DNA of 64,000 nucleotides, from assembly GCA_012522795.1 (NCBI GenBank), contig JAAYJT010000070.1, forward strand, positions 26,983 to 90,982, given 5' to 3'. The notes below the pieces were generated by a model. It was not told the DNA's origin. It saw only the letters and a list, made by a program, of their open reading frames with translations, and did no database searches. The translations under genes and the position numbers were made by a program. Positions 3,114 to 64,000 of this stretch are shown here, piece after piece. Positions within the stretch are counted from its first letter, which is position 1, and each line of letters opens with the position of its first letter. Origin of the DNA: Bacteroidales bacterium (lineage in GTDB: Bacteria; Bacteroidota; Bacteroidia; Bacteroidales; JAAYJT01).

Positions 3114-4403
3114 ATGACAAAACAAATAATTTTTTCAGCTATCCTACTTATTACTCTGTGTACATTTGCATGGACTATACGGCGGCTTGCCCGTTTCTTC
3201 AAACTTACTCAGCCTGCTTTTCCGGTTAAAGATATCGGGAAGCGAATGGCTTTGACCCTTCGCGTTGCATTTGGTCAAAGTAAAATTTTCCGATGGCCCT
3301 TTGCAGGACTTTTTCATGCTTTGGTATTCTGGGGTTTCATTGTGATAACCCTTGGAAGCATCGAAATGGTGATTGACGGTCTTTCGGGAACCGAAAGGAT
3401 AATGGGATTTTTAGGACCAGTTTATGATGTTGTTATCGGAAGTGGTGATGTATTTGCAGCCATAGTTTTAATTTCCATACTTGTTTTTATAATAAGGAGG
3501 GTTTTCCACAATATCAAGCGGTTCAAAGGAACAGAAATTAAAAGGATATCAACAATTGATGCCTATATTGCGTTAACCATGATTTTATTCCTCATGATCT
3601 CGTTGCTGGGAATGAACATCGGGTATGTTATTCTTCATGATAAAGATATTACAGGTGTATATCCTGTAAGTCAATGGCTGGCAGGATATTTTGCTCCCAA
3701 AATGAGCAATAATGCCGCCGGCACTCTTTTCGAGGTAAGCTGGTGGGTTCACATCATTCTTATTTTCATTTTTGCAAATATTCTTCCTTACAGTAAGCAT
3801 TTCCATGTATTTACTTCTATCCCCAATGTTTTTCTTAGTCGTCTGGAACCTCTGGGTTACCTGCCCAATATGGAGAATGTCATGAATGAAGTCCGGCTGA
3901 TGATTAATCCTGAGGCATCAGTAGCCGAATCGCCGGTTGTTAGCAGATTTGGTGTAAAAGATGCTGAAGATGTTAACTGGAAAAATTATCTGGATTCTCT
4001 GGCATGTACTGAGTGCGGGCGATGTACTGCGGTTTGTCCGGCAAATATCACCGGAAAAAAGCTTTCGCCCAGAAAAATATTTATTGATCTGAGGGCAAGA
4101 ATGAAAGAAAAAGGACCTGGTTTGGTTAAAAACGGGAAAGAATTCACTGACAATAAAAGTCTGTTACGCGATTATATAACTGAAGAGGAGCTTTGGGCAT
4201 GTACTACCTGCAATGCCTGCGCTCAGGAATGTCCTATAAACATTAACCATCCAACACTGATTATGGATATGCGCCGTTATCTGGTCATGGAAGAAGCTGC
4301 TGCTCCTGCTGAACTAAACATGATGTTTACCAATATTGAAAACAATGGAGCTCCGTGGCAGCGCAGTCAGGATGACAGACTGCTGTGGGCTGAAGGATTG
4401 TAA
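3114..4403 (+). CDS. Membrane-anchored (Fe-S)-binding protein: multi-TM N-terminus plus 4Fe-4S dicluster domain (HdrC/DsrK-like)
   Basis: Several hydrophobic helices in the first ~250 aa. Two CxxCxxCxxxCP ferredoxin motifs are present (CTECGRCTAVCP, CTTCNACAQECP). The ORF-track start at 3075 is TTG, so I prefer the ATG at 3114. Confidence 0.7.
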   Translation: MTKQIIFSAILLITLCTFAWTIRRLARFFKLTQPAFPVKDIGKRMALTLRVAFGQSKIFRWPFAGLFHALVFWGFIVITLGSIEMVIDGLSGTERIMGFLGPVYDVVIGSGDVFAAIVLISILVFIIRRVFHNIKRFKGTEIKRISTIDAYIALTMILFLMISLLGMNIGYVILHDKDITGVYPVSQWLAGYFAPKMSNNAAGTLFEVSWWVHIILIFIFANILPYSKHFHVFTSIPNVFLSRLEPLGYLPNMENVMNEVRLMINPEASVAESPVVSRFGVKDAEDVNWKNYLDSLACTECGRCTAVCPANITGKKLSPRKIFIDLRARMKEKGPGLVKNGKEFTDNKSLLRDYITEEELWACTTCNACAQECPININHPTLIMDMRRYLVMEEAAAPAELNMMFTNIENNGAPWQRSQDDRLLWAEGL

Positions 4404-4591
4404 TGGTGATAAGATCATTATTAGTGGAAAATTGAATTGTGACATAATTTTAAGATCAGAAATTGACGAATATTTTGGAAAGTTTATTAAATAAAAAGTG
4501 ACTTTTATTCATTGCAAAAAAGCAAATTCTAAAAAAAACCAATCGCTGAACATACAGCATCAGGATAATCCAAAATTAAAAACACAAATCC

Positions 4592-5377
4592 ATGAATATA
4601 AAGCTTCCAATAATGTCAGACCTGCAGGCTCAGAACAAACAACCTGAATATCTTTACTGGGTTGGTTGTGCCGGAGCTTTTGACGATCGTTACCAGAAAG
4701 TGGCGCGTGCTTTTACACGTATATTACACCATCTTGGTATTGATTATGCAGTTCTTGGCAAAGAAGAAACCTGTAACGGTGACCCGGCACGCCGGGCAGG
4801 TAACGAAATGCTTTTCCACTTACAGGCTTCAATGGTTGTTGAAACATTTGAGCGTTACGATATAAAGAAGATAATAACAACCTGTCCGCATTGTTATAAT
4901 ACTTTTAAAAATGAATACCCCGATGTGGGCTGGAGTGGTGAAGTGATCCACCATAGCCAATTTCTGCAAGAATTAATTGAAAAGAATAAATTAAAAGTTC
5001 CGGATAATATATTCAATGAAGATAAGATTGTTTTCCATGATCCATGTTACCTGGGCAGGGCAAACGACGAATATGAAGCCCCTCGAAAAGTGATTGATGC
5101 CCTAAAAACTGAAAGGGTTGAAATGCCGCGCAACAAAAGTTTTGCACTTTGCTGTGGCGCCGGCGGAGCACAAATGTTCAAGGAAGCAGAGCCGGGAAAC
5201 AAGGAAATCTATGCTGAACGTACTGAAGAAGCTTTGGCTACAGGTGCTTCAATAATTGCCACTGCCTGCCCGTTTTGTATGACCATGCTCACTGATGGAA
5301 TAAAATACCAGAACAGGGAAGAAGATGTTAAAAACCTTGATATTGCCGAGATGATTGCAAATGCACTCGGCTTATAA
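4592..5377 (+). CDS. (Fe-S) oxidoreductase with cysteine-rich CCG domains (HdrB/HdrD/GlpC-like)
   Basis: Two CCG-type motifs (TCPHCYNTF ... HDPCYLGR and CCGAGG ... ACPFCMTML). Sits adjacent to the 4Fe-4S membrane partner. Confidence 0.75.
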   Translation: MNIKLPIMSDLQAQNKQPEYLYWVGCAGAFDDRYQKVARAFTRILHHLGIDYAVLGKEETCNGDPARRAGNEMLFHLQASMVVETFERYDIKKIITTCPHCYNTFKNEYPDVGWSGEVIHHSQFLQELIEKNKLKVPDNIFNEDKIVFHDPCYLGRANDEYEAPRKVIDALKTERVEMPRNKSFALCCGAGGAQMFKEAEPGNKEIYAERTEEALATGASIIATACPFCMTMLTDGIKYQNREEDVKNLDIAEMIANALGL

Positions 5378-54877: not shown

Positions 54878-55148
54878 TCAAGCAATACTGGTAAGATATG
54901 CCAAAATGATGAAAAACAGATATATCAAAATTCTTCATCATTAAACAATTTTCCATATCCAGCTAACGGTTCATTTACAGAGGATGAACCATATTCCCGT
55001 TTTTTACTTTTAGCTGTTGTTTTTTTTCAATCTTAGCCAGTTTTTTGTTAACTGCTGACAGGTCAACGGGTTCTTTTTATACGGCTGTACTTAAATAGTC
55101 AAGTCTTAAAAAGCCAAATTCGATTTATTTTTTAAAATTAAGAAGATA

Positions 55149-55639
55149 AAAATCAACTTCTTAATTTTATACAGTAAATTAGAAAACTATGAGTAAATTT
55201 TAGTTGGCGAGAAACTCCATTGCAGGTGAAAAGAAAGATGGTCTTTAAATTTGAGCAACATACAACAAGGAAACAGTTGTGCCGGTGTATAAACATCCAT
55301 CGCAGCAACTCTACTACAAGCCAATAAACAGCAAACGTGGGGGCAAACTCAGCACAGAGGAGCTGAAGCTCATGGGATATATCATCAATCCCGGCCTTAA
55401 CTTGACTGACAATGAAAATGTTCAAGAGACTGGAGGAGGTAAACTAATAGAACAGACATACAAAGATGACCACCATCATCGCAAGTCAGCTGCCTGTACC
55501 AAGCTGGTAGGATGTAATTTGAGAAGAAACCATCATAGATGCCAGATTGGACAGATTGGTTAATACTTCACAAAGAATTAAACTAAAAGATGAAAGTTTA
55601 AGAAAAAACTGTAATATTGTCAGCAGAAATATTTTTTAA
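55149..55639 (+). pseudogene. Decayed IS21-family istB-like fragment; left copy of a ~490-bp direct repeat
   Basis: Aligns base-for-base with 63508-64000, roughly 85-90% identical by eye. The translation contains MTTIIASQLPVPSW*DVI*EETIIDARLDRLVNTSQRIKLKDESLRK, i.e. the IstB C-terminal pattern (..SQLPV..W...IGE.TIADAILDRL...S.RI.LKGES.R) broken by stops and a frameshift. Confidence 0.6.
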
Positions 55640-55869
55640 GTTGACCAGAATTCCAATGGGGTCAGTATCGCAAGAATAAACATTTAATCAGATAATTGAA
55701 ATCCATCGTGTTATTAACGAACGTATTATCACGATAATATATGTTAATTTTCTTTATATATCCTTTCAAAGTACTATATTTCGTTTTGTCCTGACACACT
55801 ATAGCTAAATTGATTTCACCATGAAATATTTAAAAAAATTACTTTGTGATTGAATTATTTCATTTACTT

Positions 55870-55886
55870 TTGACAAAAATAGTCAA
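55870..55886 (+). promoter_or_regulatory. Palindrome TTGAC-N7-GTCAA 8 nt upstream of the HTH gene start (candidate C-box-like operator)
   Basis: TTGACaaaaataGTCAA is read directly at 55870-55886. The HTH gene ATG is at 55895. Confidence 0.35.
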
Positions 55887-55894
55887 CATTAATT

Positions 55895-56206
55895 ATGTCA
55901 ACAGATACTATTGGGGAAAAACTCAGACAATTAAGGGAAGAAAAGGAACTTCCTTTACGAAAAGTAGCAGCACAACTGGATATTGATGTGGCAATTTTAA
56001 GTAAAATGGAGCGGGGAATAAGAAAAATAACCAAAGAAATAGTTTTACAATTGGCTGACATTTATGATTATGATGCACATGAACTTCTGGTTTCTTTTCT
56101 GAGTGATAAAATAATGTATGAAATACAAGATGAGGAATTGGGAATGGAAGCATTAAAAGTAGCAGAAGAGAGAGTAAAATATTTAAAATCAAAAGGCGAA
56201 AAATGA
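55895..56206 (+). CDS. XRE-family helix-turn-helix protein, controller (C-protein)-like
   Basis: HTH_3 pattern LRQLREEKELPLRKVAAQLDIDVAILSKMERGIRKI. 103 aa. Its stop overlaps the ATG of the large R-M-S gene (ATGA at 56203-56206). Confidence 0.8.
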   Translation: MSTDTIGEKLRQLREEKELPLRKVAAQLDIDVAILSKMERGIRKITKEIVLQLADIYDYDAHELLVSFLSDKIMYEIQDEELGMEALKVAEERVKYLKSKGEK

Positions 56207-59200
56207 AAGAACAACAAATTATATCAACAATTAAAGCTTTTGGGTTTTCTGCTGACTCAGACAATAAAAAACAGTACTCCAAAACCTATGATAATATTAG
56301 ATATCGGATTTCGGTGGATTTATTAAAAAGCCGGATTGATTTTGGACCGAAAATAAAGAAGGGGGATGACACCACCTCGCATTTGAAAAATCCTGAAAAT
56401 ATCGTTGTTTTAGAATGTGTTAATCGTCTGTTGGAGAAGGGCTATAAACCCGACGATTTAACACTTGAAAAAAAGTGGAAATTAGGACGCACTGCAAAAA
56501 GCGGTAAAGCAGACATTACAATTAAAGGTAAAAACGAAAAAACACTTTTAATTATCGAATGTAAAACCTGGGGAAAGGAATACGAAAGCGAACTCGACAG
56601 GATGAAACAGAATGGCGGACAGCTTTTCTCTTATTTCCAACAAGATAAAAACACACGTTATCTTTGCCTCTATGCCTCGAGAGAGTATGGAGGAAAAATT
56701 GAAAAGGCCAATGCACTAATAAAAGTTGAAGACAGTGCCCAGGAGAAAATTCTTCAACAAGAAACTGAAAAACTGATTACATACGAACAGGCGAAAACCA
56801 TAAAAGAGATGCTTGAAGTATGGAAACACAAAACAAAAGGGAAACAAACTTTTCTTAACACAGGGCTTTTTGAGCCGGAAATTGAACCTTATAATCCGGG
56901 ATACATTCCGATTAAGGTAGCCGATTTAAAAGATTTTGGAGCTGATGATAAAGGAAAGGTATTTAATCAGTTTGAGGAAATTTTGAGACACAACAATATT
57001 TCTGACCGTTCCAATGCTTTTAACAGGATAATTTCATTGATTTTAGCCAAAATCGTTGATGAAAACAAAGGCGAGGATGCCATTACCGACTTTCAGGTAA
57101 AGGAAGGAATTGATGATGCCGAAACATTGCTGGAACGGTTACAATCGCTCTATTCAAAAGCAATGCGCGATTATCTGGATGAAGAAGTAATTGACTATAA
57201 ATTAGAAGATATTGAAGCTCAGATTTCTAATTTTCCGCGACAAACCGCAAAAGAGACACTCTATCGCATTTATAAGGAACTGAAGTTTTATCAGAATAAT
57301 GAATTTGCTTTCAAAGAAGTTTACAACAAAAAACTTTTTGAAGAAAATGCCAAAGTGCTGGAGGAGGTTGTGAGGCTTTTCCAGAAATACCGTTTTAAAT
57401 ACGACCAAAAAGCGCAATTCTTAGGAGATTTCTTTGAATTGATGCTGGAAAGCGGATATAAACAATCAGAAGGTCAGTTTTTTACACCTACGCCTATCAC
57501 AAAATTCATTATTTACTCAATTCCTTTAAAATCAATAGTTCAGGAAAAACTTCAAAAAGGAGAAAAATTCTTTTTACCCAAAGTGGTTGACTTTGCCTGT
57601 GGGAGCGGACATTTCCTTACGGAAGCTATTGAAGAAATTGCCGAATTGATTAAAGAAATAACCGAAGATGACATAAAAGTCATGCCGGATGCGGACAAGT
57701 TAGAGTTTGCTCTGAAAGAGCTGAGAAACTACAAGCATGATATGAGATGGGCAGGCGAATATGTGTTCGGAATTGAAAAGGATTATCGTTTGGCAAGAAC
57801 CAGCCAGGTAGCCTGCTTTATGCATGGCGACGGAGATGCCAATATAATTTTTGGCGACGGGCTTGAAAAGCATGAACGTTTAGGTAAAGATGGTTCTTTT
57901 GATGTACTTGTCGCAAATCCTCCCTACACCATTAAAGATTTCAAAAAACACCTGAATGTAAATCCGCATAATTTCGAGCTTTGGGAGCATGTAACGCCTG
58001 ATTCCGACGACATTGAAGTTTTCTTTATAGAGCGAATGAAACAATTGCTTCGTACGGGTGGAATGGCCGGTATTATTCTTCCAAGTTCCATACTTAGCAA
58101 TTCAGGAGCATATACCAAAGCAAGAGAAATTATTCTCAAATATTTTGAAATAAAGGCAATCGTTGAATTTGGCGGAAATACTTTTGGAGCAACAGGCACT
58201 AACACCGTTACGCTGTTTTTGAAAAAAAGAGATGAAGATTTTGTAACCAATTGCCAATATATTTCCGAAGATTATATTTTTGAAAACAAAACACGCGAAG
58301 GGGATTTTATAAACTCGAAAGAACTTTTTGAAAACTATATAACACATTTGGAATTAGAAGAAGAAGATTATAAAACTTTTATTTCGAGAAAGCCTAATAA
58401 AGAAATTAAAAAGACCGAATTCTACAAAAGTTACAAAAACTGGTTTGATGGCTTAACTGAAGTGAAAAACTTAAAAAAAAGAAAAACTTTCAAAGAGATG
58501 CCGGAAACAGATCAGGAAGAAAAACTCACCTCCATGTTTTTTGACCTGATATTGGAAATTGAAACCGAAAAGTTTTTTTACTTTTTACTCACCCATCGTA
58601 TAGAGGAAGATCCTGAACATTTTGCATGGTATAATGACCAAACAAATGAAGGAGCACCGATAAAAGTAGCCTATCCGCAGCGCAAAGCCATACCACAAAA
58701 AACACTGATTGTAAAAACAGGACGAAGCACCAAAGAACAGGAGAAATTTTTAGGCTACAAATTCAGTAACCGAAGAGGTTACAAAGGAATTGATTTTACA
58801 GGCGAAACTTTAATGTATGATACCGCAAATCAGTTAAATCCACAAAAAGCAAACAGCTATATCTATAAAAATTTCACAAACCAAAAAATAAAAATTGATG
58901 AAGAACTTACCGAAAATCTTTCTTTGGTAAGATTGACCGATTGCATTAATTATGAGGGAATTGATTTTGACAAAAGGATAAATTTAAATGTTGAGTCTAA
59001 AATTGAATATGAAACAATATATGAATTAAAGAGTATCGGGAGTTTACTTAATTTTCAATCAGGATTATGGAAAGGAGAAAACGACCCCCTAATAGATGTT
59101 AAAGTGATAAGGAATACTGAATTTTTACCGGATGGTAAATTAAATTATGAAAATCCAACAGTTATTTCAGTTGAAGCAAAACAATTAGAAAGTCGCAAAT

Positions 59201-60120
59201 TGAAATATGGTGATATTATTTTGGAAAGGAGTGGAGGCAGTGAAACTCAAAACATTGGCAGAGTTGCTTATTTTGAAATTGAAACTAATGAAACTTATTC
59301 TTTTGGTAATTTCACCAGTAGGCTCAGACCTTTTGATAAAAATATAATTATTCCTAAATATGCGATGATACTTTTAAATGACCTCTATCAAAAAGGAGGA
59401 ACTTTAATTTATCAATCTGGTATTCGTATTAAAAACTTAAATCAGAATGCTTATAAATCAGCAAAAATCCCTGTTCCACCAATTGCTGTACAAAAGAAAA
59501 TCATTGAGGAAATAGAAGCTATTGAAAAAAAGGAAATAGAAGCGAAAAAAGTAATTGAAGAAAAAACACATAAGATTGATGAGCTGTTTTCAACTTTTTT
59601 TATTGGCTCTTTCAAAAAGACACTGGAAGAAATTTGCACATTAAAAGCAGGGAAATTTGTTAAAGCAGCTGATATCAAAGATATGCCTGACGATAATTTA
59701 TATCCATGCTATGGAGGTAATGGATTAAGAGGTTATACAGAAACTTTTACTCATGAGGGAACCTTTCCTTTAGTTGGAAGGCAGGGAGCTTTATGCGGAA
59801 ATGTTCATTTAGTAAAAGGAAAGTTTCACGCTACCGAACATGCATTGGTTGCTACTCCAAAAGAAGAAATTAACGTTGTTTGGCTCTATCATCTTTTACG
59901 TACAATGAATTTAAACCAGTATGCTAGAGGAGTTGCACAGCCCGGTTTATCTGTAAAATATCTTAACCCAATTATTATAAGTGTCTTACCGCTCAAACAA
60001 CAAGAAAAAATTGTTGAGGAAATTGAGAAACTTGAAAAAGAAATCTTTAATTTAGAGCAATCTATCACCACTGTTGAAGAAGATAAAAGAGAGGTATTGA
60101 TGAAGTATTTGGAGGAGTAA
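56203..60120 (+). CDS. Single-chain restriction-modification-specificity enzyme (Type IIB/IIG-like): PD-(D/E)XK nuclease + gamma-class N6-adenine methyltransferase + two HsdS-like target recognition domains
   Basis: Nuclease-like motif GKADITI...LLIIECK (D at 56512-56514, E-x-K at 56557-56565). GQFFTPTPI, motif I VVDFACGSGHFL (57583-57618) and motif IV NPPY (57916-57927). Two Methylase_S-like TRDs (~59001-59600 and ~59601-60117), each ending in an IPVPPIAVQKKIIEEIE / LPLKQQEKIVEEIE helix. Confidence 0.8.
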   Translation: MKEQQIISTIKAFGFSADSDNKKQYSKTYDNIRYRISVDLLKSRIDFGPKIKKGDDTTSHLKNPENIVVLECVNRLLEKGYKPDDLTLEKKWKLGRTAKSGKADITIKGKNEKTLLIIECKTWGKEYESELDRMKQNGGQLFSYFQQDKNTRYLCLYASREYGGKIEKANALIKVEDSAQEKILQQETEKLITYEQAKTIKEMLEVWKHKTKGKQTFLNTGLFEPEIEPYNPGYIPIKVADLKDFGADDKGKVFNQFEEILRHNNISDRSNAFNRIISLILAKIVDENKGEDAITDFQVKEGIDDAETLLERLQSLYSKAMRDYLDEEVIDYKLEDIEAQISNFPRQTAKETLYRIYKELKFYQNNEFAFKEVYNKKLFEENAKVLEEVVRLFQKYRFKYDQKAQFLGDFFELMLESGYKQSEGQFFTPTPITKFIIYSIPLKSIVQEKLQKGEKFFLPKVVDFACGSGHFLTEAIEEIAELIKEITEDDIKVMPDADKLEFALKELRNYKHDMRWAGEYVFGIEKDYRLARTSQVACFMHGDGDANIIFGDGLEKHERLGKDGSFDVLVANPPYTIKDFKKHLNVNPHNFELWEHVTPDSDDIEVFFIERMKQLLRTGGMAGIILPSSILSNSGAYTKAREIILKYFEIKAIVEFGGNTFGATGTNTVTLFLKKRDEDFVTNCQYISEDYIFENKTREGDFINSKELFENYITHLELEEEDYKTFISRKPNKEIKKTEFYKSYKNWFDGLTEVKNLKKRKTFKEMPETDQEEKLTSMFFDLILEIETEKFFYFLLTHRIEEDPEHFAWYNDQTNEGAPIKVAYPQRKAIPQKTLIVKTGRSTKEQEKFLGYKFSNRRGYKGIDFTGETLMYDTANQLNPQKANSYIYKNFTNQKIKIDEELTENLSLVRLTDCINYEGIDFDKRINLNVESKIEYETIYELKSIGSLLNFQSGLWKGENDPLIDVKVIRNTEFLPDGKLNYENPTVISVEAKQLESRKLKYGDIILERSGGSETQNIGRVAYFEIETNETYSFGNFTSRLRPFDKNIIIPKYAMILLNDLYQKGGTLIYQSGIRIKNLNQNAYKSAKIPVPPIAVQKKIIEEIEAIEKKEIEAKKVIEEKTHKIDELFSTFFIGSFKKTLEEICTLKAGKFVKAADIKDMPDDNLYPCYGGNGLRGYTETFTHEGTFPLVGRQGALCGNVHLVKGKFHATEHALVATPKEEINVVWLYHLLRTMNLNQYARGVAQPGLSVKYLNPIIISVLPLKQQEKIVEEIEKLEKEIFNLEQSITTVEEDKREVLMKYLEE

Positions 60121-60155
60121 AGAAGATATTATAGTTATAATAAATACAGATAGGT

Positions 60156-61196
60156 ATGGCAAAGAAAATAGACACAAGCACTATCGTAATTGAAAACATT
60201 ATTGTTCATAGTATTCCTAGGCACAGGAAAGGGGATTTTTCTATTAAACCCAAATATAGTGAACAAGAAAGCTCATTACCAGACGGTTTAAGAGTCTTTT
60301 TTAAAGATAAAATAATACAGTCTTTACAGAGTAATAAAGAATTAAGAGTCTGCTATGACACTGAAAGTGTTTCTCCAGTTTCAACATATATTAATCAAAT
60401 TTTAAATACTGATGGTGCTGAATTAGTTAAGCAATCAAAGCTAATGACTAAGTATTTATTTGAAATTCAGGGAGGCCAAAATTCATCAGGAATATTAGTT
60501 GTTATTTTCGGTAAAATTAACAACCAAAACACTTGCATAATTATTAAGCTAGAAAAAGATGAAGGGGCGCAGTTAGAGCTAGATCCTAAAACAAACTCTT
60601 TTAATATTAAAGATGTAAAAAACTTAATGCTTACACGAAGAACTAAAATATATAAGGTTGGATTATTTGTTGACAAGTCAGTTTTCGAAATTAAGTATGA
60701 CGGAAGTACAGCAGATTTACAGATAGATCCTAAAACTAAAAAAGAAGTTACGACTTGGTTTATTGAGAAATTTTTAGGTTGCGTTCCTCTTGCTGACCCA
60801 AGAACTACTACAAAGAAATTTCATGATCTTACAACAACATTTATTCAAAGTATAGAAGATCCTATTAAGAAAGCAAAATACACACAAGACTTAAATTCAT
60901 ATTTACAAAAAAACACTCACAGAATAAGTGCAAAGGAATTTGCAGATGATTATATGGAAACATCAGACAAAGATCTTTACAATAATTATTTAAAAGAAAA
61001 AGAGTTTAGAATGTCTGAGTTTCCCAAGGACAATTATTTCATAGAAAATAAAATAAAAAAATTAACCATGACTTTTGACAATGATATTGCTATTGTTGGA
61101 AACAAGGGGACATTTGATCAAAACGTCAAGTTAGAAAAACAAAAAGATGGCACAACTAAAGCTGAAATAATATCTAAAGTAAAAAGTGTTCGATAA
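60156..61196 (+). CDS. Divergent NdpA/YejK-like (NA37 family) nucleoid-associated protein
   Basis: The N-terminal IIVHSIP motif corresponds to the I..H.L/V start of the family. A central SSGILVVIFG and TWFIEKFLGCVP (family F...FLG motif) are present. The layout parallels the 62186-63235 protein. This is a divergent, unverified call. Confidence 0.55.
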   Translation: MAKKIDTSTIVIENIIVHSIPRHRKGDFSIKPKYSEQESSLPDGLRVFFKDKIIQSLQSNKELRVCYDTESVSPVSTYINQILNTDGAELVKQSKLMTKYLFEIQGGQNSSGILVVIFGKINNQNTCIIIKLEKDEGAQLELDPKTNSFNIKDVKNLMLTRRTKIYKVGLFVDKSVFEIKYDGSTADLQIDPKTKKEVTTWFIEKFLGCVPLADPRTTTKKFHDLTTTFIQSIEDPIKKAKYTQDLNSYLQKNTHRISAKEFADDYMETSDKDLYNNYLKEKEFRMSEFPKDNYFIENKIKKLTMTFDNDIAIVGNKGTFDQNVKLEKQKDGTTKAEIISKVKSVR

Positions 61197-62176
61197 TGAT
61201 AAATGTTCAGAAAATTGTTGATTTATGGAATGAAGAGCAACCTAAATATGAAGAATTAGGAAAAATCGTTTGTGCTTTCATAAAAGATAAAATTACCGAG
61301 TATGAAATATTACCTGAAATTCAATATAGAACAAAGGAGCTCTTAAGCATAATAAAAAAGGTCAAAAAGAAGCAAGATCATAAGGAATATTCCTACCACC
61401 ACCTGAAAGATAAATTAGGCATTAGAATTATCTGTTCTTTTCAAGAGGAATTGGAAATTATTGATAAATTATTGCATGATTTTTTCACAATCATAGAAGC
61501 GGAATATAAGCAAGAGGAGTTAGATTTTGATAAATTAGATTATGTTTCCAATCACTATGATGTCCAAATTAACTTAGACGTTGATGAGTTTGGAAAATAT
61601 ACTAATCTCGGAGCTCTCATTTTTGAGATACAAGTAAGAACATTGAACCAACATGCTTGGTCAAATATGGCGCATTCGTTAGCATATAAACAAGATAAAG
61701 ACTTACCACCAAAGCTAAAACGAAAAGTTTATCGACTACTTTCTTTATATGAATTAGCTGACGATGAATTTTCAAGTGTAAATAAAGCCTTAAAGGAATA
61801 TAAAGACAATCACTCTTTTACTCTTTTGAAAAAACTTGAAGGGAAATTTTATAAGTATGCCAAAATTGATTTTGACAGAGAAATCACTTTGTATACCATT
61901 GATATCCTTTTAAGCTATTACGAAAATGAGGATAGTGTTAATCAAATTATCTGTAAAATTGGCAATTTTATAACTAACAATGAACAAAAAATAAAAAGAA
62001 TATACGATGAAAACAGAAACCGTTTTTACGCAATACTATTTTTAACACAACCTGAAATTTTTATTATTTGGTTTATGCTCCAAAACAATCCATTTACATT
62101 AGAAGATAATTGGGCAAATGATTTTGAAGAAGAAGACCTAGAACAAATTAAAACCCTTTGGGGAAATGACTTATAA
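61196..62176 (+). CDS. RelA/SpoT-domain (small alarmone synthetase / toxSAS-like) nucleotidyltransferase with ~150-aa uncharacterised C-terminal region
   Basis: All synthetase motifs are present: RTKELLS (R45xKxxxS, from nt 61328), DKLGIRI (61409-61426), DYVSNHY, EIQVRT (61625-61642) and HAWSNMAHSLAYK. The start overlaps the upstream stop (TAATG at 61194-61198). Confidence 0.8.
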   Translation: MINVQKIVDLWNEEQPKYEELGKIVCAFIKDKITEYEILPEIQYRTKELLSIIKKVKKKQDHKEYSYHHLKDKLGIRIICSFQEELEIIDKLLHDFFTIIEAEYKQEELDFDKLDYVSNHYDVQINLDVDEFGKYTNLGALIFEIQVRTLNQHAWSNMAHSLAYKQDKDLPPKLKRKVYRLLSLYELADDEFSSVNKALKEYKDNHSFTLLKKLEGKFYKYAKIDFDREITLYTIDILLSYYENEDSVNQIICKIGNFITNNEQKIKRIYDENRNRFYAILFLTQPEIFIIWFMLQNNPFTLEDNWANDFEEEDLEQIKTLWGNDL

Positions 62177-62185
62177 TTTTAAAAT

Positions 62186-63235
62186 ATGTTAGACCTTACA
62201 AATTGTAATATACTTGATCTGATTGCCCACCAAGTTGGCAATCAGACGAATGATGAAGAATTGATATTGTCAGCTTCATTATTGAATACAGAAGACTCTC
62301 ATCTGAGAGAACTCTTGGTTAAGTATTTTCTTTATCCTTTCGAAAATATGCAAGAGTTTTATTCATTTACATTTTCAGATGAAGACTTCACATTAAACCC
62401 CCTTTATCAATATGCGACTAGTATCTTTTCAGAAAAAGATAACTTCAAAATGAAAAGTGAGAGTATTGCAAAACATCTTTATAAAATAGCTTTACACCCT
62501 AAAATAAAATCGGGAGATTTATTTGTAGTAACTCTTGAAAATATAAGTTTAGATGGAGAAATGGTAAACGCTTTAGGCTTTTTTAAATCTGAAAATAGAC
62601 AAGATTTTTTAAAATTGAATAAGATCTCAAAAGAGTTCTCGCTAAAATATGATAAAGGAATCAATATTGAAAAATTAGACAAAGGTTGTTTGATATTCAA
62701 TACTGAAAGAGAGAATGGTTATATATTATCTGTTGTTGACAACACAAACAAAGGAAATGAAGCACAATATTGGATGAATGATTTTTTGGGTGTAAAACCT
62801 ATTAACAACGAATATCATCAAACCAATCAATTTTTGGGTATTACAAAACAGTTTGTAACAAAGCAGTTAGACAACGAATTTGAAATTAATAAAGCTGATA
62901 AAATAGATTTGCTTAATCGTTCAGTTGATTATTTTAAAAAGCATGATCAGTTTGACAAGGAAGAATTTGAAGCAGAAGTTTTTAACGATTCAAATTTAAT
63001 AGAATCATTCCGTCAGTTCGATAAGATTTATAGAAATGAAAATGAAATTGAATTGGATGACAACTTTGTGATTTCCGCACCTGCAGTAAAAAAACAAGCC
63101 CGGGCTTTCAAAAGTGTTCTGAAACTGGATAAAAACTTTCATATTTATATCCACGGCAACCGGGATTTAATAGAACAGGGAGTTGACAAAGACGGACGAA
63201 AATATTATAAAATTTATTACGAAGAGGAAACTTAA
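62186..63235 (+). CDS. NdpA/YejK-family nucleoid-associated protein (Bacteroidota type)
   Basis: ILDLIAHQVGN N-terminus, SGDLFVVTLE, LDKGCLIFNTERENGY, and YWMNDFLGVKP (F..FLG family motif). 349 aa. It starts 9 nt after the RelA/SpoT-like gene. Confidence 0.75.
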   Translation: MLDLTNCNILDLIAHQVGNQTNDEELILSASLLNTEDSHLRELLVKYFLYPFENMQEFYSFTFSDEDFTLNPLYQYATSIFSEKDNFKMKSESIAKHLYKIALHPKIKSGDLFVVTLENISLDGEMVNALGFFKSENRQDFLKLNKISKEFSLKYDKGINIEKLDKGCLIFNTERENGYILSVVDNTNKGNEAQYWMNDFLGVKPINNEYHQTNQFLGITKQFVTKQLDNEFEINKADKIDLLNRSVDYFKKHDQFDKEEFEAEVFNDSNLIESFRQFDKIYRNENEIELDDNFVISAPAVKKQARAFKSVLKLDKNFHIYIHGNRDLIEQGVDKDGRKYYKIYYEEET

Positions 63236-63507
63236 AATATGTTATATTGACATGGAGTCAGAATTAGACTTTTGACATTCAAACAAAAGTTTGATTGTTG
63301 AGAACAAACAAGTCAATGACTCCAAAAATAGCGGACCGGTAGGATGAAGATAGAAATCTGACTATCTTATTATAGATGCAGGTTACCGAGAGGATATATT
63401 TTATTCATTATCTATTTGGAGTTAAGTGCAACAGCAGTTAACATAATATAGATATTATCGCCTGCTACTCCTTTGTAAAAATTATCCTAATCCCTTAATT
63501 CCTCGGA

Positions 63508-64000
63508 CAAAAATCAATTTCTTATTTTTGTACAGTAAATTAGAATACTATGAGTAAATTTTAGTTGGTGCGAAACTCCGTTGTAGGTGAAAAGAGAGAT
63601 TATCTTTGAATTTGAGCAGCATACAACCAGGAAACAGTTGTGCCGGTGCTTAAACAACCACCGCAACAGCTCTATTACAAGCCAAAATACGACAAACGTG
63701 GGTGCAAACTCAGCACAGAGGAGCCGAAAATCATGGGATATATCATCAATCCCGGCCTTAACCTAACTGACAATGAAAATGTTCAAGAGACTGGAGGGAG
63801 TAAACCAATATAACCGATATACAAATATGACCATCATCATAGCAAGTCAACTGTCTGTAGCAAGCTGTTATGATGTAATTTTAGAGGTAACTATCGCAGC
63901 TGCCATATTAGATAGATTGGTTAATACTTCACACAGAATCAAACTAAAAGATGGAAGTTTAAGAAAAAACTGTAATATTGTCAGCAGAAATATTTTTTAA
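63508..64000 (+). pseudogene. Decayed IS21-family istB-like fragment; right copy of the direct repeat (runs off the window end)
   Basis: Aligns with 55149-55639. The translation MTIIIASQLSVASCYDVILEVTIAAAILDRLVNTSHRIKLKDGSLRK retains the IstB C-terminal pattern. Upstream frames are broken differently from the left copy. Confidence 0.6.

What the first reader, a model, noticed from the sequence alone, without database searches (positions are those of the whole stretch)
60156..63235. Candidate undescribed system: RelA/SpoT-type nucleotidyltransferase sandwiched between two NdpA/YejK-like nucleoid-associated proteins, directly downstream of the R-M-S enzyme
Three co-oriented genes are packed with a 1-nt overlap (TAATG at 61194-61198) and a 9-nt gap. 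They start only 35 nt after the R-M-S gene, with no visible terminator. The middle gene has an intact small-alarmone-synthetase/toxSAS-type catalytic core. Both flanking genes show the NA37 (NdpA/YejK) pattern (I..H.. N-terminus, F..FLG motif). The first is strongly diverged and the second is of the usual Bacteroidota type. Known toxSAS toxins (FaRel, PhRel, CapRel families) make toxic alarmones or pyrophosphorylate tRNA, and they are neutralised by small antitoxins or a fused C-terminal domain. A pairing with DNA-binding NdpA-like proteins is not one I recognise from named defence or TA systems. One hypothesis is that the NdpA-like proteins act as DNA-sensing or antitoxin components. They could hold the synthetase inactive until foreign or damaged DNA is bound, giving an abortive-infection or alarmone-signalling backup to the adjacent restriction enzyme.
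Basis: inference. Interest (0 to 1): 0.85.

Follow-up and report, generated by a model that had tools for sequence, protein, structure and literature searches.

The report
NAP-activated alarmone synthetase defence cassette
The first two genes are a Bacteroidota version of the recently described PANGU anti-phage system, in which a DNA-clamping nucleoid protein switches on a toxic alarmone synthetase, and the conserved third gene is a second, different nucleoid protein that the PANGU preprint's main text does not mention.

Summary
Three co-oriented genes sit 35 nt behind a type IIG R-M-S gene: A 60156-61196, B 61196-62176, C 62186-63235. Pfam calls them NA37, RelA_SpoT and NA37.

The trio is not a chance adjacency. 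A sits directly upstream of B wherever upstream sequence is present, and C follows in 21 of 29 reference-genome loci. DNA homology to the window starts at A's ATG and ends at C's stop. The three proteins co-diverge (r 0.81-0.91).

A-B is not undescribed. It matches type I PANGU (bioRxiv 10.64898/2026.04.06.716658). In that system a YejK-like clamp released from degraded host DNA activates a GRel alarmone synthetase and aborts infection. Homologous overlapping NAP-SAS pairs occur on Klebsiella, Ochrobactrum, Clostridium and Streptomyces plasmids. B keeps all catalytic motifs and has the helical linker and acidic C-terminal domain.

What is new is C. It is a canonical, acidic, Bacteroidota-type clamp NAP from a different lineage than A, and it travels with A-B. 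C-type NAPs also end Lamassu and unknown modules behind near-identical HTH-R-M genes. The window's C is a recombinant with a breakpoint near 62654. C's role is unresolved.

Verdict: a new variant of a known kind, of moderate interest.

The parts
55145..55640 (.). Left copy of a direct repeat of at least 495 nt (89% identical to the right copy). It carries an IS21 IstB-like remnant and brackets the island.
   Evidence: Pfam IstB_IS21 on the matching ORF of the right copy
55895..56206 (+). HTH_3 controller-type regulator (103 aa). It overlaps the R-M start by 4 nt and is the left end of the mobile island frame.
   Evidence: 86% identical to the L053 HTH; DNA homology to L053 starts at 55843
56203..60120 (+). 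Type IIG restriction-modification-specificity fusion enzyme (1305 aa). It is not part of the conserved trio but is a recurrent neighbour.
   Evidence: PADLOC REase_MTase_IIG 877 bits, Pfam N6_Mtase/Eco57I/Methylase_S; 98% identical over aa 1-1097 to the L053 enzyme and 96% over aa 1001-1305 to the L045 enzyme
60156..61196 (+). Gene A: Pag1A-like NA37/YejK-type nucleoid-associated clamp protein (346 aa, basic, pI 9.0). It is the predicted sensor and activator.
   Evidence: Pfam NA37; the family-A HMM hits NAPs partnered with SAS in four other bacterial groups (three phyla) at 114-162 bits over the full length; always next to B
61196..62176 (+). Gene B: Pag1B/GRel-like small alarmone synthetase effector (326 aa).
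   Evidence: Pfam RelA_SpoT; invariant R45, K47, D72, G75, R77, Y116, H120, E144, Q146, R148; closest solved relatives are RelQ/RelP
61196..61690 (+). B, aa 1-165: alpha/beta SYNTH catalytic domain.
   Evidence: AF2 pLDDT about 85-95 over most of the domain, dipping to 71-77 in three 10-residue blocks; Foldseek top hits are SAS1/RelQ and RelP
61709..61798 (+). B, aa 172-201: long helical linker, modelled at low confidence.
61811..62161 (+). B, aa 206-322: all-helical acidic C-terminal domain (net charge -8, pI 4.6). It is the candidate NAP-binding 'DNA-mimic' (DMK) domain.
   Evidence: homologous across phyla (family-B HMM positions 4-324 of 325)
62186..63235 (+). Gene C: second NA37 clamp-type NAP (349 aa, acidic, pI 5.0). 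It is of the common Bacteroidota lineage, not the Pag1A lineage.
   Evidence: Pfam NA37 128 bits; more than 7000 homologues, including stand-alone genes at 58-72% identity; scores 16 bits or less in either direction against family A
62186..62653 (+). C, aa 1-156: the cassette-type half. It is 85% identical to the C of the L001 cassette and only 34-37% identical to the NAPs that end the Lamassu and unknown modules.
62654..63396 (+). C, aa 157-349 plus 160 bp downstream: the island-frame half. It is 96% identical in DNA to the L045 (Lamassu-linked) NAP and 92% to L053. The recombination breakpoint is near 62654.
63506..64000 (.). Right copy of the direct repeat, running to the end of the window.

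Best explanation
Genes A and B form a Bacteroidota member of the type I PANGU abortive-infection system. The mechanism is inferred by homology to the characterised system. A is a dimeric YejK-type clamp that rides on long chromosomal DNA. B is a RelQ-like small alarmone synthetase, kept catalytically silent by self-association. When a phage degrades the host chromosome, A loses its DNA. A then binds B's acidic helical C-terminal domain, which mimics DNA, and so licenses the SYNTH domain. The SYNTH domain transfers pyrophosphate from ATP to GTP/GDP, making (p)ppGpp and draining NTPs, which halts transcription and translation in the infected cell. Gene C is a second, canonical, acidic clamp NAP of a different lineage that is inherited together with A-B. 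My preferred reading, which is inference, is that C is an accessory nucleoid-bound partner. I see it as the generic 'terminal NAP' that Bacteroidota defence modules carry: a second DNA-integrity input or a modulator of B activation, not an essential core part. Its gene also serves as the right-hand homology arm through which whole modules are exchanged behind HTH-R-M genes. The adjacent type IIG R-M enzyme is an independent first-line system. It shares the island, and possibly the transcript, but is not part of the conserved unit.
For: Domains: NA37 / RelA_SpoT / NA37. Synteny: A sits directly upstream of B in every locus with upstream sequence, usually with overlapping stop and start codons. 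A implies B in 2 of 2 unbiased look-ups. The family sizes are similar (A 167, B 318). Homology to PANGU-type pairs elsewhere: overlapping NAP->RelA/SpoT pairs occur on Klebsiella (with a DUF4231/SLATT-like gene, as the preprint reports for Cluster 1), Ochrobactrum, C. botulinum and Streptomyces plasmids. Their NAPs score 114-162 bits against the family-A HMM but 23 bits or less against family C, and their SAS proteins match family B from end to end. Architecture of B: a SYNTH domain, a helical linker and an all-helical acidic C-terminal domain, as described for Pag1B. All catalytic residues are invariant, including the G-loop Tyr (Y116). Product: B is closest in sequence and fold to the (p)ppGpp-making tetrameric RelQ/RelP enzymes (E 1e-21) and much further from the tRNA-modifying CapRel (E 2e-6, Foldseek rank 49). 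Mechanism: taken from bioRxiv 10.64898/2026.04.06.716658. Defence context: the cassette lies next to R-M systems, Shedu, PDC-S31, GmrSD, ICE and IS genes. C belongs to the unit: homology to other loci runs from A's ATG to C's stop with unrelated flanks; the divergence of A, B and C is correlated (r 0.81-0.91, Mantel p 5e-4) at equal rates. C-type NAPs also end Lamassu and unknown modules with tight junctions (4-nt gap or overlapping codons). C as a recombination arm: the window's C is chimeric at about codon 157.
Against: No sequence of the experimentally tested Pag1A/Pag1B (F. futtsuensis, P. aeruginosa) was available, and PDB 9UFP is not in the held copy. Membership therefore rests on homology to untested plasmid pairs with the same architecture, at only 20-27% identity. 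No GRel subfamily HMM was available. The product, (p)ppGpp as opposed to (p)ppApp or tRNA modification, is inferred and not shown. For C, several points argue against a role. The two-gene form works in other phyla and is nested three times within the Bacteroidota clade, with no residue in A or B that tracks the presence of C. Cassette C cannot be told apart from stand-alone NAPs by HMM score, and a stand-alone gene is nested among the linked ones. Half of C has been swapped by recombination in this very locus. All of this fits C being dispensable for A-B function.
Confidence: 0.72

Rival explanations
1. C is an obligate third subunit of a dual-NAP PANGU variant. Either A and C form a heteromeric clamp, echoing the two asymmetric Pag1A subunits in the published Pag1A2-Pag1B complex, or C is a second sensor whose N-terminal half gives module specificity.
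For: Tight operonic linkage, co-transfer and co-divergence. The published heterotrimer uses two Pag1A subunits with very unequal interfaces, 1200 against 400 A2. NAPs that end different modules have module-specific N-halves (34-56% identical) but shared C-halves (79-95%). A is basic and C is acidic in the great majority of family members: 21 of 26 A proteins have pI 8.1-9.3 (the other five 5.8-6.6), and all 21 C proteins have pI 4.9-6.3.
Against: A and C are barely recognisable as paralogues (16-27 bits; no significant BLASTP), which makes a shared intertwined C-domain dimer interface unlikely. The N-half of cassette C resembles stand-alone NAPs (52-77%) and is not a specialised form. Two-gene cassettes exist without compensating changes in A or B.
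Confidence: 0.25
2. C is a passenger with no role in controlling B. It could be a mobile-element-borne 'stealth' NAP that helps the host tolerate the AT-rich island. Or it could simply be the homology arm or landing pad through which modules are exchanged or integrated next to NAP genes.
For: C is of the ordinary Bacteroidota NAP type and scores the same as stand-alone genes. There is an intragenic recombination breakpoint in C, with near-identical HTH-R-M frames carrying three different modules. L002 has a second C-like gene right behind the cassette. C has been lost cleanly three times. NAPs carried on mobile elements are known, for example NdpA2 on the ICE PAPI-1 (PMC8565334, title and abstract only).
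Against: C has stayed intact with near-overlapping junctions through cassette divergence of up to about 60%. Each swapped module brings its own diverged NAP N-half and does not reuse a resident one. The preprint shows NAPs acting as activators for several effector types.
Confidence: 0.35
3. The trio is a classical toxSAS toxin-antitoxin module in which A and/or C neutralise a constitutively toxic B.
For: The overlapping bicistronic layout resembles toxSAS TA operons (PMC7229694).
Against: In the homologous PANGU systems neither gene is toxic alone, and the NAP activates the synthetase instead of inhibiting it. B lacks a fused antitoxin domain and is closer to RelQ/RelP than to CapRel. A is about the same size as B, not a small antitoxin. 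PADLOC shows only a weak match limited to the SYNTH domain, to the candidate PDC-S33.
Confidence: 0.05
4. B does not make (p)ppGpp. Instead it makes (p)ppApp or pyrophosphorylates tRNA 3' ends, as FaRel, FaRel2 and CapRel do.
For: toxSAS enzymes with similar SYNTH cores have these activities. B is only 20-24% identical to the proteobacterial homologues.
Against: The nearest relatives in sequence and fold are (p)ppGpp synthetases. The characterised Pag1B showed no tRNA labelling and used only ATP with G nucleotides.
Confidence: 0.12
5. The arrangement is a chance adjacency of an A-B pair to a housekeeping NdpA gene, with no conserved trio.
For: C-type NAPs are common stand-alone genes.
Against: There are 21 of 29 genome loci plus L040-44 and L058 with the same junction, unrelated flanks, and homology that ends at C's stop. 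The island is AT-rich (about 29% GC against 38-45% in the flanks) and is bracketed by repeats.
Confidence: 0.02

Closest known systems
Type I PANGU (Pag1A NAP + Pag1B/GRel toxSAS), bioRxiv 10.64898/2026.04.06.716658
   Same: A YejK/NA37-type NAP gene lies immediately upstream of, and overlaps, a SAS gene. The SAS has an N-terminal SYNTH domain, a helical linker and an acidic C-terminal domain, with catalytic motifs intact. The context is a defence island, often next to R-M. Homologous pairs occur across phyla, including one with a SLATT-like gene.
   Different: PANGU is defined as bicistronic, whereas here a second NA37 gene of a different lineage is a conserved third gene. The tested systems are gammaproteobacterial and share only about 20-27% identity with this one, judged through untested plasmid homologues. 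Bacteroidota are mentioned only as 'sporadic'. A is basic (pI 9). There are no experimental data for this clade.
PANGU-like NAP operons, Cluster 7 (NAP + DUF3732 protein) and Cluster 4 (two hypothetical proteins upstream of the NAP), same preprint
   Same: C-type NAPs that share over 90% identity with the window's C over their C-terminal half are the last gene of a Lamassu operon (LmuB carrying DUF3732) and of two-gene unknown/TM modules.
   Different: In the window the slot upstream of the C-type NAP is filled by a complete type I PANGU pair that has its own NAP. The equivalence of L053/L055 to Cluster 4 is my inference.
RelQ/SAS1 and RelP/SAS2 small alarmone synthetases (PDB 5DEC, 5DED, 6EWZ)
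   Same: They are the best sequence and fold matches to B's catalytic domain and are homotetrameric (p)ppGpp synthetases.
   Different: They are housekeeping stress enzymes without the about 120-aa acidic helical C-terminal domain and without a NAP partner.
CapRel SJ46 and the FaRel/FaRel2/PhRel toxSAS toxin-antitoxin systems
   Same: They use a RelA/SpoT-type SYNTH effector for growth arrest and anti-phage defence.
   Different: Those are neutralised by a fused or small antitoxin and act on tRNA or make (pp)pApp. B matches them only weakly (7ZTB, E 2e-6) and is predicted to be activated, not de-repressed.
E. coli YejK (PDB 9BE2; PMC11229321)
   Same: A and C both match NA37. C shares YejK's overall acidity, and YejK is a two-domain dimeric DNA clamp with a stable C-domain interface.
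   Different: YejK is a stand-alone chromosomal NAP. A is basic and dedicated to B. The family-A profile hits YejK only at E 0.005.

Membership tests
Type I PANGU (Pag1A-Pag1B) | A YejK/NA37-type NAP gene directly adjacent to and co-oriented with a RelA/SpoT-domain SAS gene | tested here: met
   Pfam; 1-nt overlap; conserved in all loci with upstream sequence
Type I PANGU (Pag1A-Pag1B) | The NAP belongs to the lineage that partners with SAS effectors | tested here: met
   The family-A HMM hits NAPs of NAP-SAS pairs from Klebsiella, Ochrobactrum, Clostridium and Streptomyces at 114-162 bits over the full length, against 23 bits or less for the family-C HMM
Type I PANGU (Pag1A-Pag1B) | Sequence homology to the experimentally characterised Pag1A/Pag1B (F. 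futtsuensis, P. aeruginosa; PDB 9UFP) | not testable with these tools
   No supplementary sequences are held. 9UFP is absent from the PDB copy.
Type I PANGU (Pag1A-Pag1B) | Effector architecture: N-terminal toxSYNTH, alpha-helical linker and an acidic C-terminal 'DMK' domain | tested here: met
   AF2 model: SYNTH 1-165, helix 172-201, all-alpha 206-322. The C-terminal domain has net charge -8 and pI 4.6, with a family range of -1 to -14. The C-terminal domain is homologous across phyla.
Type I PANGU (Pag1A-Pag1B) | The effector is classified in the GRel subfamily of the RSH superfamily | not testable with these tools
   No RSH subfamily HMMs are available. gRel was defined in gammaproteobacteria (PMC3153485).
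Type I PANGU (Pag1A-Pag1B) | Intact catalytic site, including the G-loop tyrosine | tested here: met
   R45, K47, D72, G75, R77, Y116, H120, E144, Q146 and R148 are invariant in 21 sequences from several phyla
Type I PANGU (Pag1A-Pag1B) | Bicistronic (two-gene) operon | tested here: not met
   A third gene, C, is part of the inherited unit here and in 21 of 29 loci. A two-gene form also exists in the same clade.
Type I PANGU (Pag1A-Pag1B) | NAP-dependent activation of pppGpp synthesis, triggered by phage-induced genome degradation, giving abortive infection | not testable with these tools
   This needs biochemistry and phage assays. Here it is inferred from the preprint.
toxSAS toxin-antitoxin modules (FaRel, FaRel2, PhRel, CapRel) | A toxic SAS neutralised by a small adjacent antitoxin or a fused C-terminal antitoxin domain | tested here: not met
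   The neighbours are 346-349-aa NA37 proteins. B's profile is much closer to RelP/RelQ (1e-21) than to CapRel (2e-6). Toxicity itself was not testable.
NA37 / YejK nucleoid-associated proteins (PF04245) | A profile match over most of the length, above the gathering score | tested here: met
   A scores 72 bits (aa 16-316) and C scores 128 bits (aa 13-325), against a cut-off of 24.6
NA37 / YejK nucleoid-associated proteins (PF04245) | A dimeric DNA clamp with a basic pore on an overall acidic protein | tested here: inconclusive
   C has pI 5.0, like YejK. A has pI 9.0. Clamp formation was not modelled.
Type IIG restriction-modification (neighbour, not part of the trio) | A fused REase-MTase polypeptide, here with Type I-like specificity (target-recognition) domains (type IIG/IIB-like) | tested here: met
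   PADLOC REase_MTase_IIG 877 bits; Pfam N6_Mtase, Eco57I and Methylase_S x2

The most novel reading that the evidence does not exclude
Bacteroidota defence islands contain a plug-and-play slot. An HTH-R-M gene sits on the left and a canonical clamp NAP on the right, with interchangeable effector modules between them: the PANGU A-B pair, Lamassu, or unknown TM pairs. The modules are exchanged by recombination inside the NAP gene. The NAP's N-terminal half co-segregates with the module and specifies which effector it licenses. In the A-B-C form two different NAP clamps, basic A and acidic C, jointly gate one alarmone synthetase. That would make C a shared nucleoid-integrity hub sensor and not a passenger.
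Probability: 0.25. Interest if true: 0.75.

Novelty: new variant of a known kind. Interest (0 to 1): 0.55.

Why it matters
This extends the newly proposed principle that nucleoid clamps act as sentinels of genome integrity to a phylum where it has not been tested. It also shows that a conserved dual-NAP form exists. Comparing cassettes with and without C in the same clade gives a natural experiment on whether a second clamp tunes the activation threshold or specificity of a NAP-licensed effector. The chimeric C gene, together with near-identical R-M frames that carry three different NAP-terminated modules, gives a concrete and testable example of how defence modules are shuffled by recombination within a shared sensor gene.

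Tried and rejected
(1) PADLOC and NCBIfam named no system for A or C. B gave only a weak match limited to the SYNTH domain, to the candidate PDC-S33 (32 bits), and a sub-threshold YjbM hit. This is not membership. (2) Rfam and tRNA scans of 54.5-64 kb found nothing, so the flanking repeat is not an RNA gene or an att-tRNA. (3) PDB searches for the PANGU complex 9UFP, with single sequences and with profiles, found nothing because the entry is not in the copy. (4) The preprint has no held supplements, so there are no reference Pag1A/B sequences. (5) The sigma-70 promoter scan was at chance level and does not suit Bacteroidota. The count of the TAnnTTTG motif was also at chance level, and only its position at 55865 is suggestive. 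(6) The NJ tree of C-type NAPs did not separate cassette-linked from stand-alone proteins. The odd placement of the window's C was later explained by its chimerism. (7) I searched for residues or charge in A or B that track the presence of C and found none (p = 0.19). (8) tblastn for C remnants downstream of B in the two-gene loci found none. (9) I considered modelling an A-C or A-A-B complex with a concatenated chain and dropped the idea. (10) Matching contigs by length between the hit lists is only a proxy and is limited by the 120-row listing.

Full report
OBSERVATION. Gene A is 60156-61196 (346 aa), gene B is 61196-62176 (326 aa) and gene C is 62186-63235 (349 aa), all on the + strand. The stop of A and the start of B overlap by one base (TAATG at 61194-61198). 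B and C are 9 nt apart. A starts 35 nt after the stop of a 1305-aa gene (56203-60120), which is itself preceded by an overlapping 103-aa HTH gene (55895-56206). Pfam assigns A to NA37 (72 bits), B to RelA_SpoT (67 bits, aa 45-168) and C to NA37 (128 bits). The upstream gene is a type IIG R-M-S fusion (PADLOC 877 bits). No terminator-like hairpin lies between the R-M gene and A, or within the trio. The five genes lie in an AT-rich block (about 29-32% GC against 38-45% in the flanks). The block is bracketed by a direct repeat of at least 495 nt (55145-55640 and 63506 to the window end, 89% identical) that carries an IS21 IstB remnant. The identical locus is found on 24 public contigs.

THE TRIO IS A REAL UNIT. 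B belongs to a compact family of about 326-aa proteins conserved over their whole length (318 hits; alignment). A scan of one genome per species returned 29 loci, mostly Bacteroidota, plus one Cloacimonadota and one betaproteobacterial MAG. In every locus with upstream sequence an A homologue lies directly upstream of B, usually with overlapping stop and start codons. The one exception is L023, which is decayed. In 21 loci a C homologue follows within 3-10 nt or overlaps B. Eight loci have only A-B. DNA similarity between the window and these loci begins at A's start codon (60155/60156) and ends at C's stop (63222-63235), or at B's stop in the two-gene loci. The flanks show no similarity. Across 18 complete cassettes the pairwise distances of A, B and C are strongly correlated (r = 0.91, 0.87, 0.81; Mantel p about 5e-4), and all three diverge at the same rate (mean p-distance 0.40-0.42). 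The cassette phylogeny cuts across taxonomy. For example, Flavobacteriia groups with Chitinophagales, and Cloacimonadota with Bacteroidales. The cassette therefore moves horizontally as a block. The R-M gene is not part of that block. The upstream neighbours elsewhere are type II methyltransferases, Shedu, PDC-S31, a conjugative coupling protein, a DnaB-like helicase or an IS1 transposase. These are typical of defence islands and mobile elements. The A lineage is small (167 proteins). Two unbiased look-ups of A homologues that were absent from the B hit list again found B next door.

WHAT A-B IS. [quoted passage not shown] It defines PANGU as bicistronic operons of a YejK-like NAP plus an effector. 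In type I the effector is Pag1B, a GRel-subfamily small alarmone synthetase with an N-terminal toxSYNTH domain, a helical linker and an acidic C-terminal 'DNA-mimicking' domain. According to the preprint, Pag1B alone is an inert homotetramer and the Pag1A dimer clamps long DNA. When T4 nucleases degrade the chromosome, Pag1A is released and binds the acidic domain, with two Pag1A subunits per Pag1B in an asymmetric arrangement. [quoted passage not shown] Neither protein is toxic alone, so the system is not a toxin-antitoxin pair. Some type I operons add a SLATT gene. The systems are linked to R-M and other defences and occur in more than five phyla, 'sporadically' in Bacteroidota.

I could not obtain the tested sequences. 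No supplements are held, and PDB 9UFP is not in the structure copy. I therefore tested homology through annotated plasmids. Translated searches with A and B hit the same plasmids. The annotation there shows overlapping 'nucleoid-associated protein' -> 'RelA/SpoT domain protein' pairs in four places: a Klebsiella pneumoniae IncFIB plasmid (preceded by a DUF4231/SLATT-like gene, the arrangement the preprint reports for some Cluster 1 operons), an Ochrobactrum plasmid, a phage-like C. botulinum plasmid and a Streptomyces plasmid. An HMM built from the Bacteroidota A proteins scores these NAPs at 114-162 bits over their full length, whereas the C-family HMM gives 23 bits or less. The B-family HMM matches their SAS partners from end to end, positions 4-324 of 325, including the C-terminal domain. 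In a 21-sequence alignment spanning these phyla, R45, K47, D72, K73, G75, R77, Y116 (the G-loop tyrosine), H120, E144, Q146 and R148 are invariant. An AlphaFold2 model of B (mean pLDDT 81) has a confident alpha/beta SYNTH domain (aa 1-165), a long low-confidence helix (172-201) and a confident all-helical domain (206-322). That last domain carries a net charge of -8 (pI 4.6), with a family range of -1 to -14. In both sequence and fold the catalytic domain is closest to the tetrameric (p)ppGpp synthetases RelQ/SAS1 and RelP/SAS2 (E about 1e-21; top Foldseek hits). It is much further from the tRNA-modifying CapRel (E 2e-6; rank 49). The C-terminal domain has no solved counterpart. On this evidence A-B has the architecture, lineage, catalytic integrity and genomic context of type I PANGU. 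The mechanism is inferred by homology and has not been shown for this clade.

WHAT C IS. A and C are not duplicates of each other. BLASTP finds no significant similarity, and the cross-family HMM scores are 16-27 bits. C belongs to a very large family of more than 7000 proteins. This is the ordinary Bacteroidota NA37 protein. Homologues at 72%, 61% and 58% identity are stand-alone genes in unremarkable chromosomal settings, and they score as well against the cassette-C HMM as the cassette copies do. Like E. coli YejK, an acidic two-domain dimeric clamp with a basic pore (PMC11229321), C is acidic (pI 5.0; all 21 family members 4.9-6.3). A is basic (pI 9.0; 21 of 26 family members 8.1-9.3, the other five 5.8-6.6). 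None of the NAP-SAS pairs from other phyla has a second NAP. The preprint's main text mentions no such variant. Its figures are not held, so they could not be checked. Rooted with the other-phylum pairs, the deepest branch (Azovibrio) has two genes. The three-gene form dominates the Bacteroidota clade, and two-gene forms are nested within it three times without leaving any C remnant. This suggests that C was captured early and later lost repeatedly.

A WIDER PATTERN: R-M, SLOT, NAP. I looked up more C homologues to see whether they are linked to A-B. Several are: L040-44, one of them again directly behind an HTH-methyltransferase R-M system. Three others are the last gene of different operons:
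- L045: a type IIG R-M-S gene, then LmuA, LmuC, LmuB and the NAP. PADLOC scores the three Lmu proteins at 157, 28 and 257 bits, and LmuB carries DUF3732, which the preprint's 'Cluster 7' pairs with a NAP.
- L053: an HTH gene, a type IIG R-M gene, a 339-aa protein, a 214-aa multi-TM protein and the NAP.
- L055: an HTH gene, an MmeI-like R-M system, a 297-aa protein, a 166-aa TM protein and the NAP.
The R-M genes of L053 and L045 are nearly identical to the window's: 98% over aa 1-1097 for L053, after which the specificity region diverges, and 96% over aa 1001-1305 for L045. The L053 HTH is 86% identical. The methyltransferase of L042 (A-B-C) is 72% identical to that of L055 (unknown module). 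The same R-M frames therefore carry different NAP-terminated modules.

C IS CHIMERIC IN THIS WINDOW. At the DNA level the window matches L045 and L053 again from 62654. It is 96% identical to the L045 NAP over 62654-63228, and 92% to L053 over 62654-63396, which runs 160 bp past C's stop. At the protein level, the window's C aa 1-156 is 85% identical to the cassette C of L001 but only 34-37% identical to the L045, L053 and L055 NAPs. Its aa 157-349 is 95%, 93% and 82% identical to those NAPs but only 70% to L001. A recombination junction therefore lies near codon 157. The 5' half of C arrived with A-B, and the 3' half belongs to the island frame shared with the Lamassu and unknown modules. Among the module-linked NAPs the N-terminal halves are divergent (34-56%) and the C-terminal halves are conserved (79-95%). 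The whole frame, 55843-63396, sits just inside the IS-remnant repeats.

HOW IT MOST LIKELY WORKS. Shown: the domain identities, the conservation of the cassette, homology to NAP-SAS pairs in other phyla, an intact active site, the two-domain architecture with an acidic tail, the defence-island context, and the chimerism of C. Inferred from the preprint: A clamps chromosomal DNA; when a phage degrades that DNA, free A binds B's acidic domain and converts inert B into an active (p)ppGpp synthetase, which aborts the infection. Inferred with low confidence: C is an accessory canonical clamp that provides a second nucleoid-integrity input or tunes activation, and its gene is the right-hand homology arm for module exchange.

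Evidence for a role of C:
- Its operonic junction, co-transfer and co-divergence with A and B.
- Its retention across deep cassette divergence.
- The module-specific N-halves of the related terminal NAPs.
Evidence against a role of C:
- The two-gene form is sufficient in the tested systems.
- The two-gene form recurs in this clade with no residue or charge change in A or B that tracks C.
- Cassette C cannot be distinguished from stand-alone NAPs.
- Half of C was swapped in this locus without loss of the reading frame.
The passenger or anchor reading (35%) and the obligate dual-NAP reading (25%) both remain open. A classical toxin-antitoxin reading (5%) and chance adjacency (2%) are disfavoured.

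COMPARISON AND NOVELTY. The system works like type I PANGU, and on the features I could test it is a member of that kind. The exception is the defining 'bicistronic' layout. Direct comparison with the tested proteins, and GRel subfamily typing, were not possible. It is not a CapRel- or FaRel-type toxSAS TA module. The new points are the conserved second NAP, the recurrent R-M/slot/NAP islands, and the recombination inside the NAP gene. I rate this a new variant of a known kind, with interest 0.55.

Noticed in passing
window 55145-55640 and 63506-64000: A direct repeat of at least 495 nt (89% identical) brackets the whole island of HTH, R-M and A-B-C. It contains an IS21 IstB C-terminal remnant and runs off the end of the window.
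   Followed up: partly
window 55843-59558 and 59558-59994, compared with L053: The type IIG R-M-S gene is 98% identical to the L053 enzyme over aa 1-1097 and then diverges in the specificity (TRD) region. This looks like a target-recognition-domain swap between otherwise near-identical enzymes.
   Followed up: partly
window 62654-63396; L045:4957-5531; L053:6463-7206: The 3' half of gene C plus 160 bp downstream is 92-96% identical to NAP genes that end a Lamassu operon (L045) and an unknown two-gene TM module (L053). The 5' half is only about 35% identical at the protein level. This indicates an intragenic recombination junction near codon 157.
   Followed up: yes
L053:4348-6001 and L055:4609-6004: Two unrelated pairs of uncharacterised proteins occupy the slot between an R-M system and a C-type NAP: 339 aa plus a 214-aa multi-TM protein, and 297 aa plus a 166-aa TM protein. 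The only signal is a weak PADLOC PDC-M53A hit for the 297-aa protein. They may correspond to the preprint's 'Cluster 4'.
   Followed up: partly
L002:10183-11259: A second C-like NA37 gene (358 aa, 271 bits against C) lies about 140 nt after the cassette's own C. It may be the resident NAP, with the cassette having integrated next to it.
   Followed up: no
L030 (Klebsiella pneumoniae IncFIB plasmid NZ_CP092398) 3527-6090: DUF4231 (SLATT-like), NAP and RelA/SpoT genes are closely packed (the SLATT-like and NAP genes 9 nt apart, the NAP and RelA/SpoT genes overlapping by 4 nt) on a conjugative plasmid from a bovine mastitis isolate. This is a plasmid-borne type I PANGU-like system with a SLATT gene.
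   Followed up: partly
L033 (C. botulinum C/D plasmid p2CbBKT12695) 3974-5997: A NAP-SAS pair sits next to a phage structural gene and an amidase gene on a phage-like plasmid, so a mobile element of phage type carries the system.
   Followed up: no
L057 (Vibrio inovirus PQ189320) 3959-4969: A filamentous phage encodes a B-like SYNTH protein (36% identical over aa 11-205, E 6e-26) with no NAP gene and no match to the C-terminal domain.
   Followed up: no
L044:5553-8327: A 924-aa HNH plus TPR protein starts 6 nt after C in one A-B-C locus. It may be a further co-operonic defence gene.
   Followed up: no
window 55865-55872: The only Bacteroidota-type -7 box (TAnnTTTG) near a gene start lies 23 nt upstream of the HTH ATG, and there is none between 58275 and 62904. 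This is compatible with a single HTH-R-M-A-B-C transcript, but the motif count is at chance level.
   Followed up: partly
window 60156-61196 compared with 62186-63235: The charge contrast holds in most family members. A-type NAPs are mostly basic (pI 8.1-9.3 in 21 of 26; the other five 5.8-6.6), whereas all 21 C-type NAPs (pI 4.9-6.3) and E. coli YejK are acidic. The reason is unknown.
   Followed up: partly
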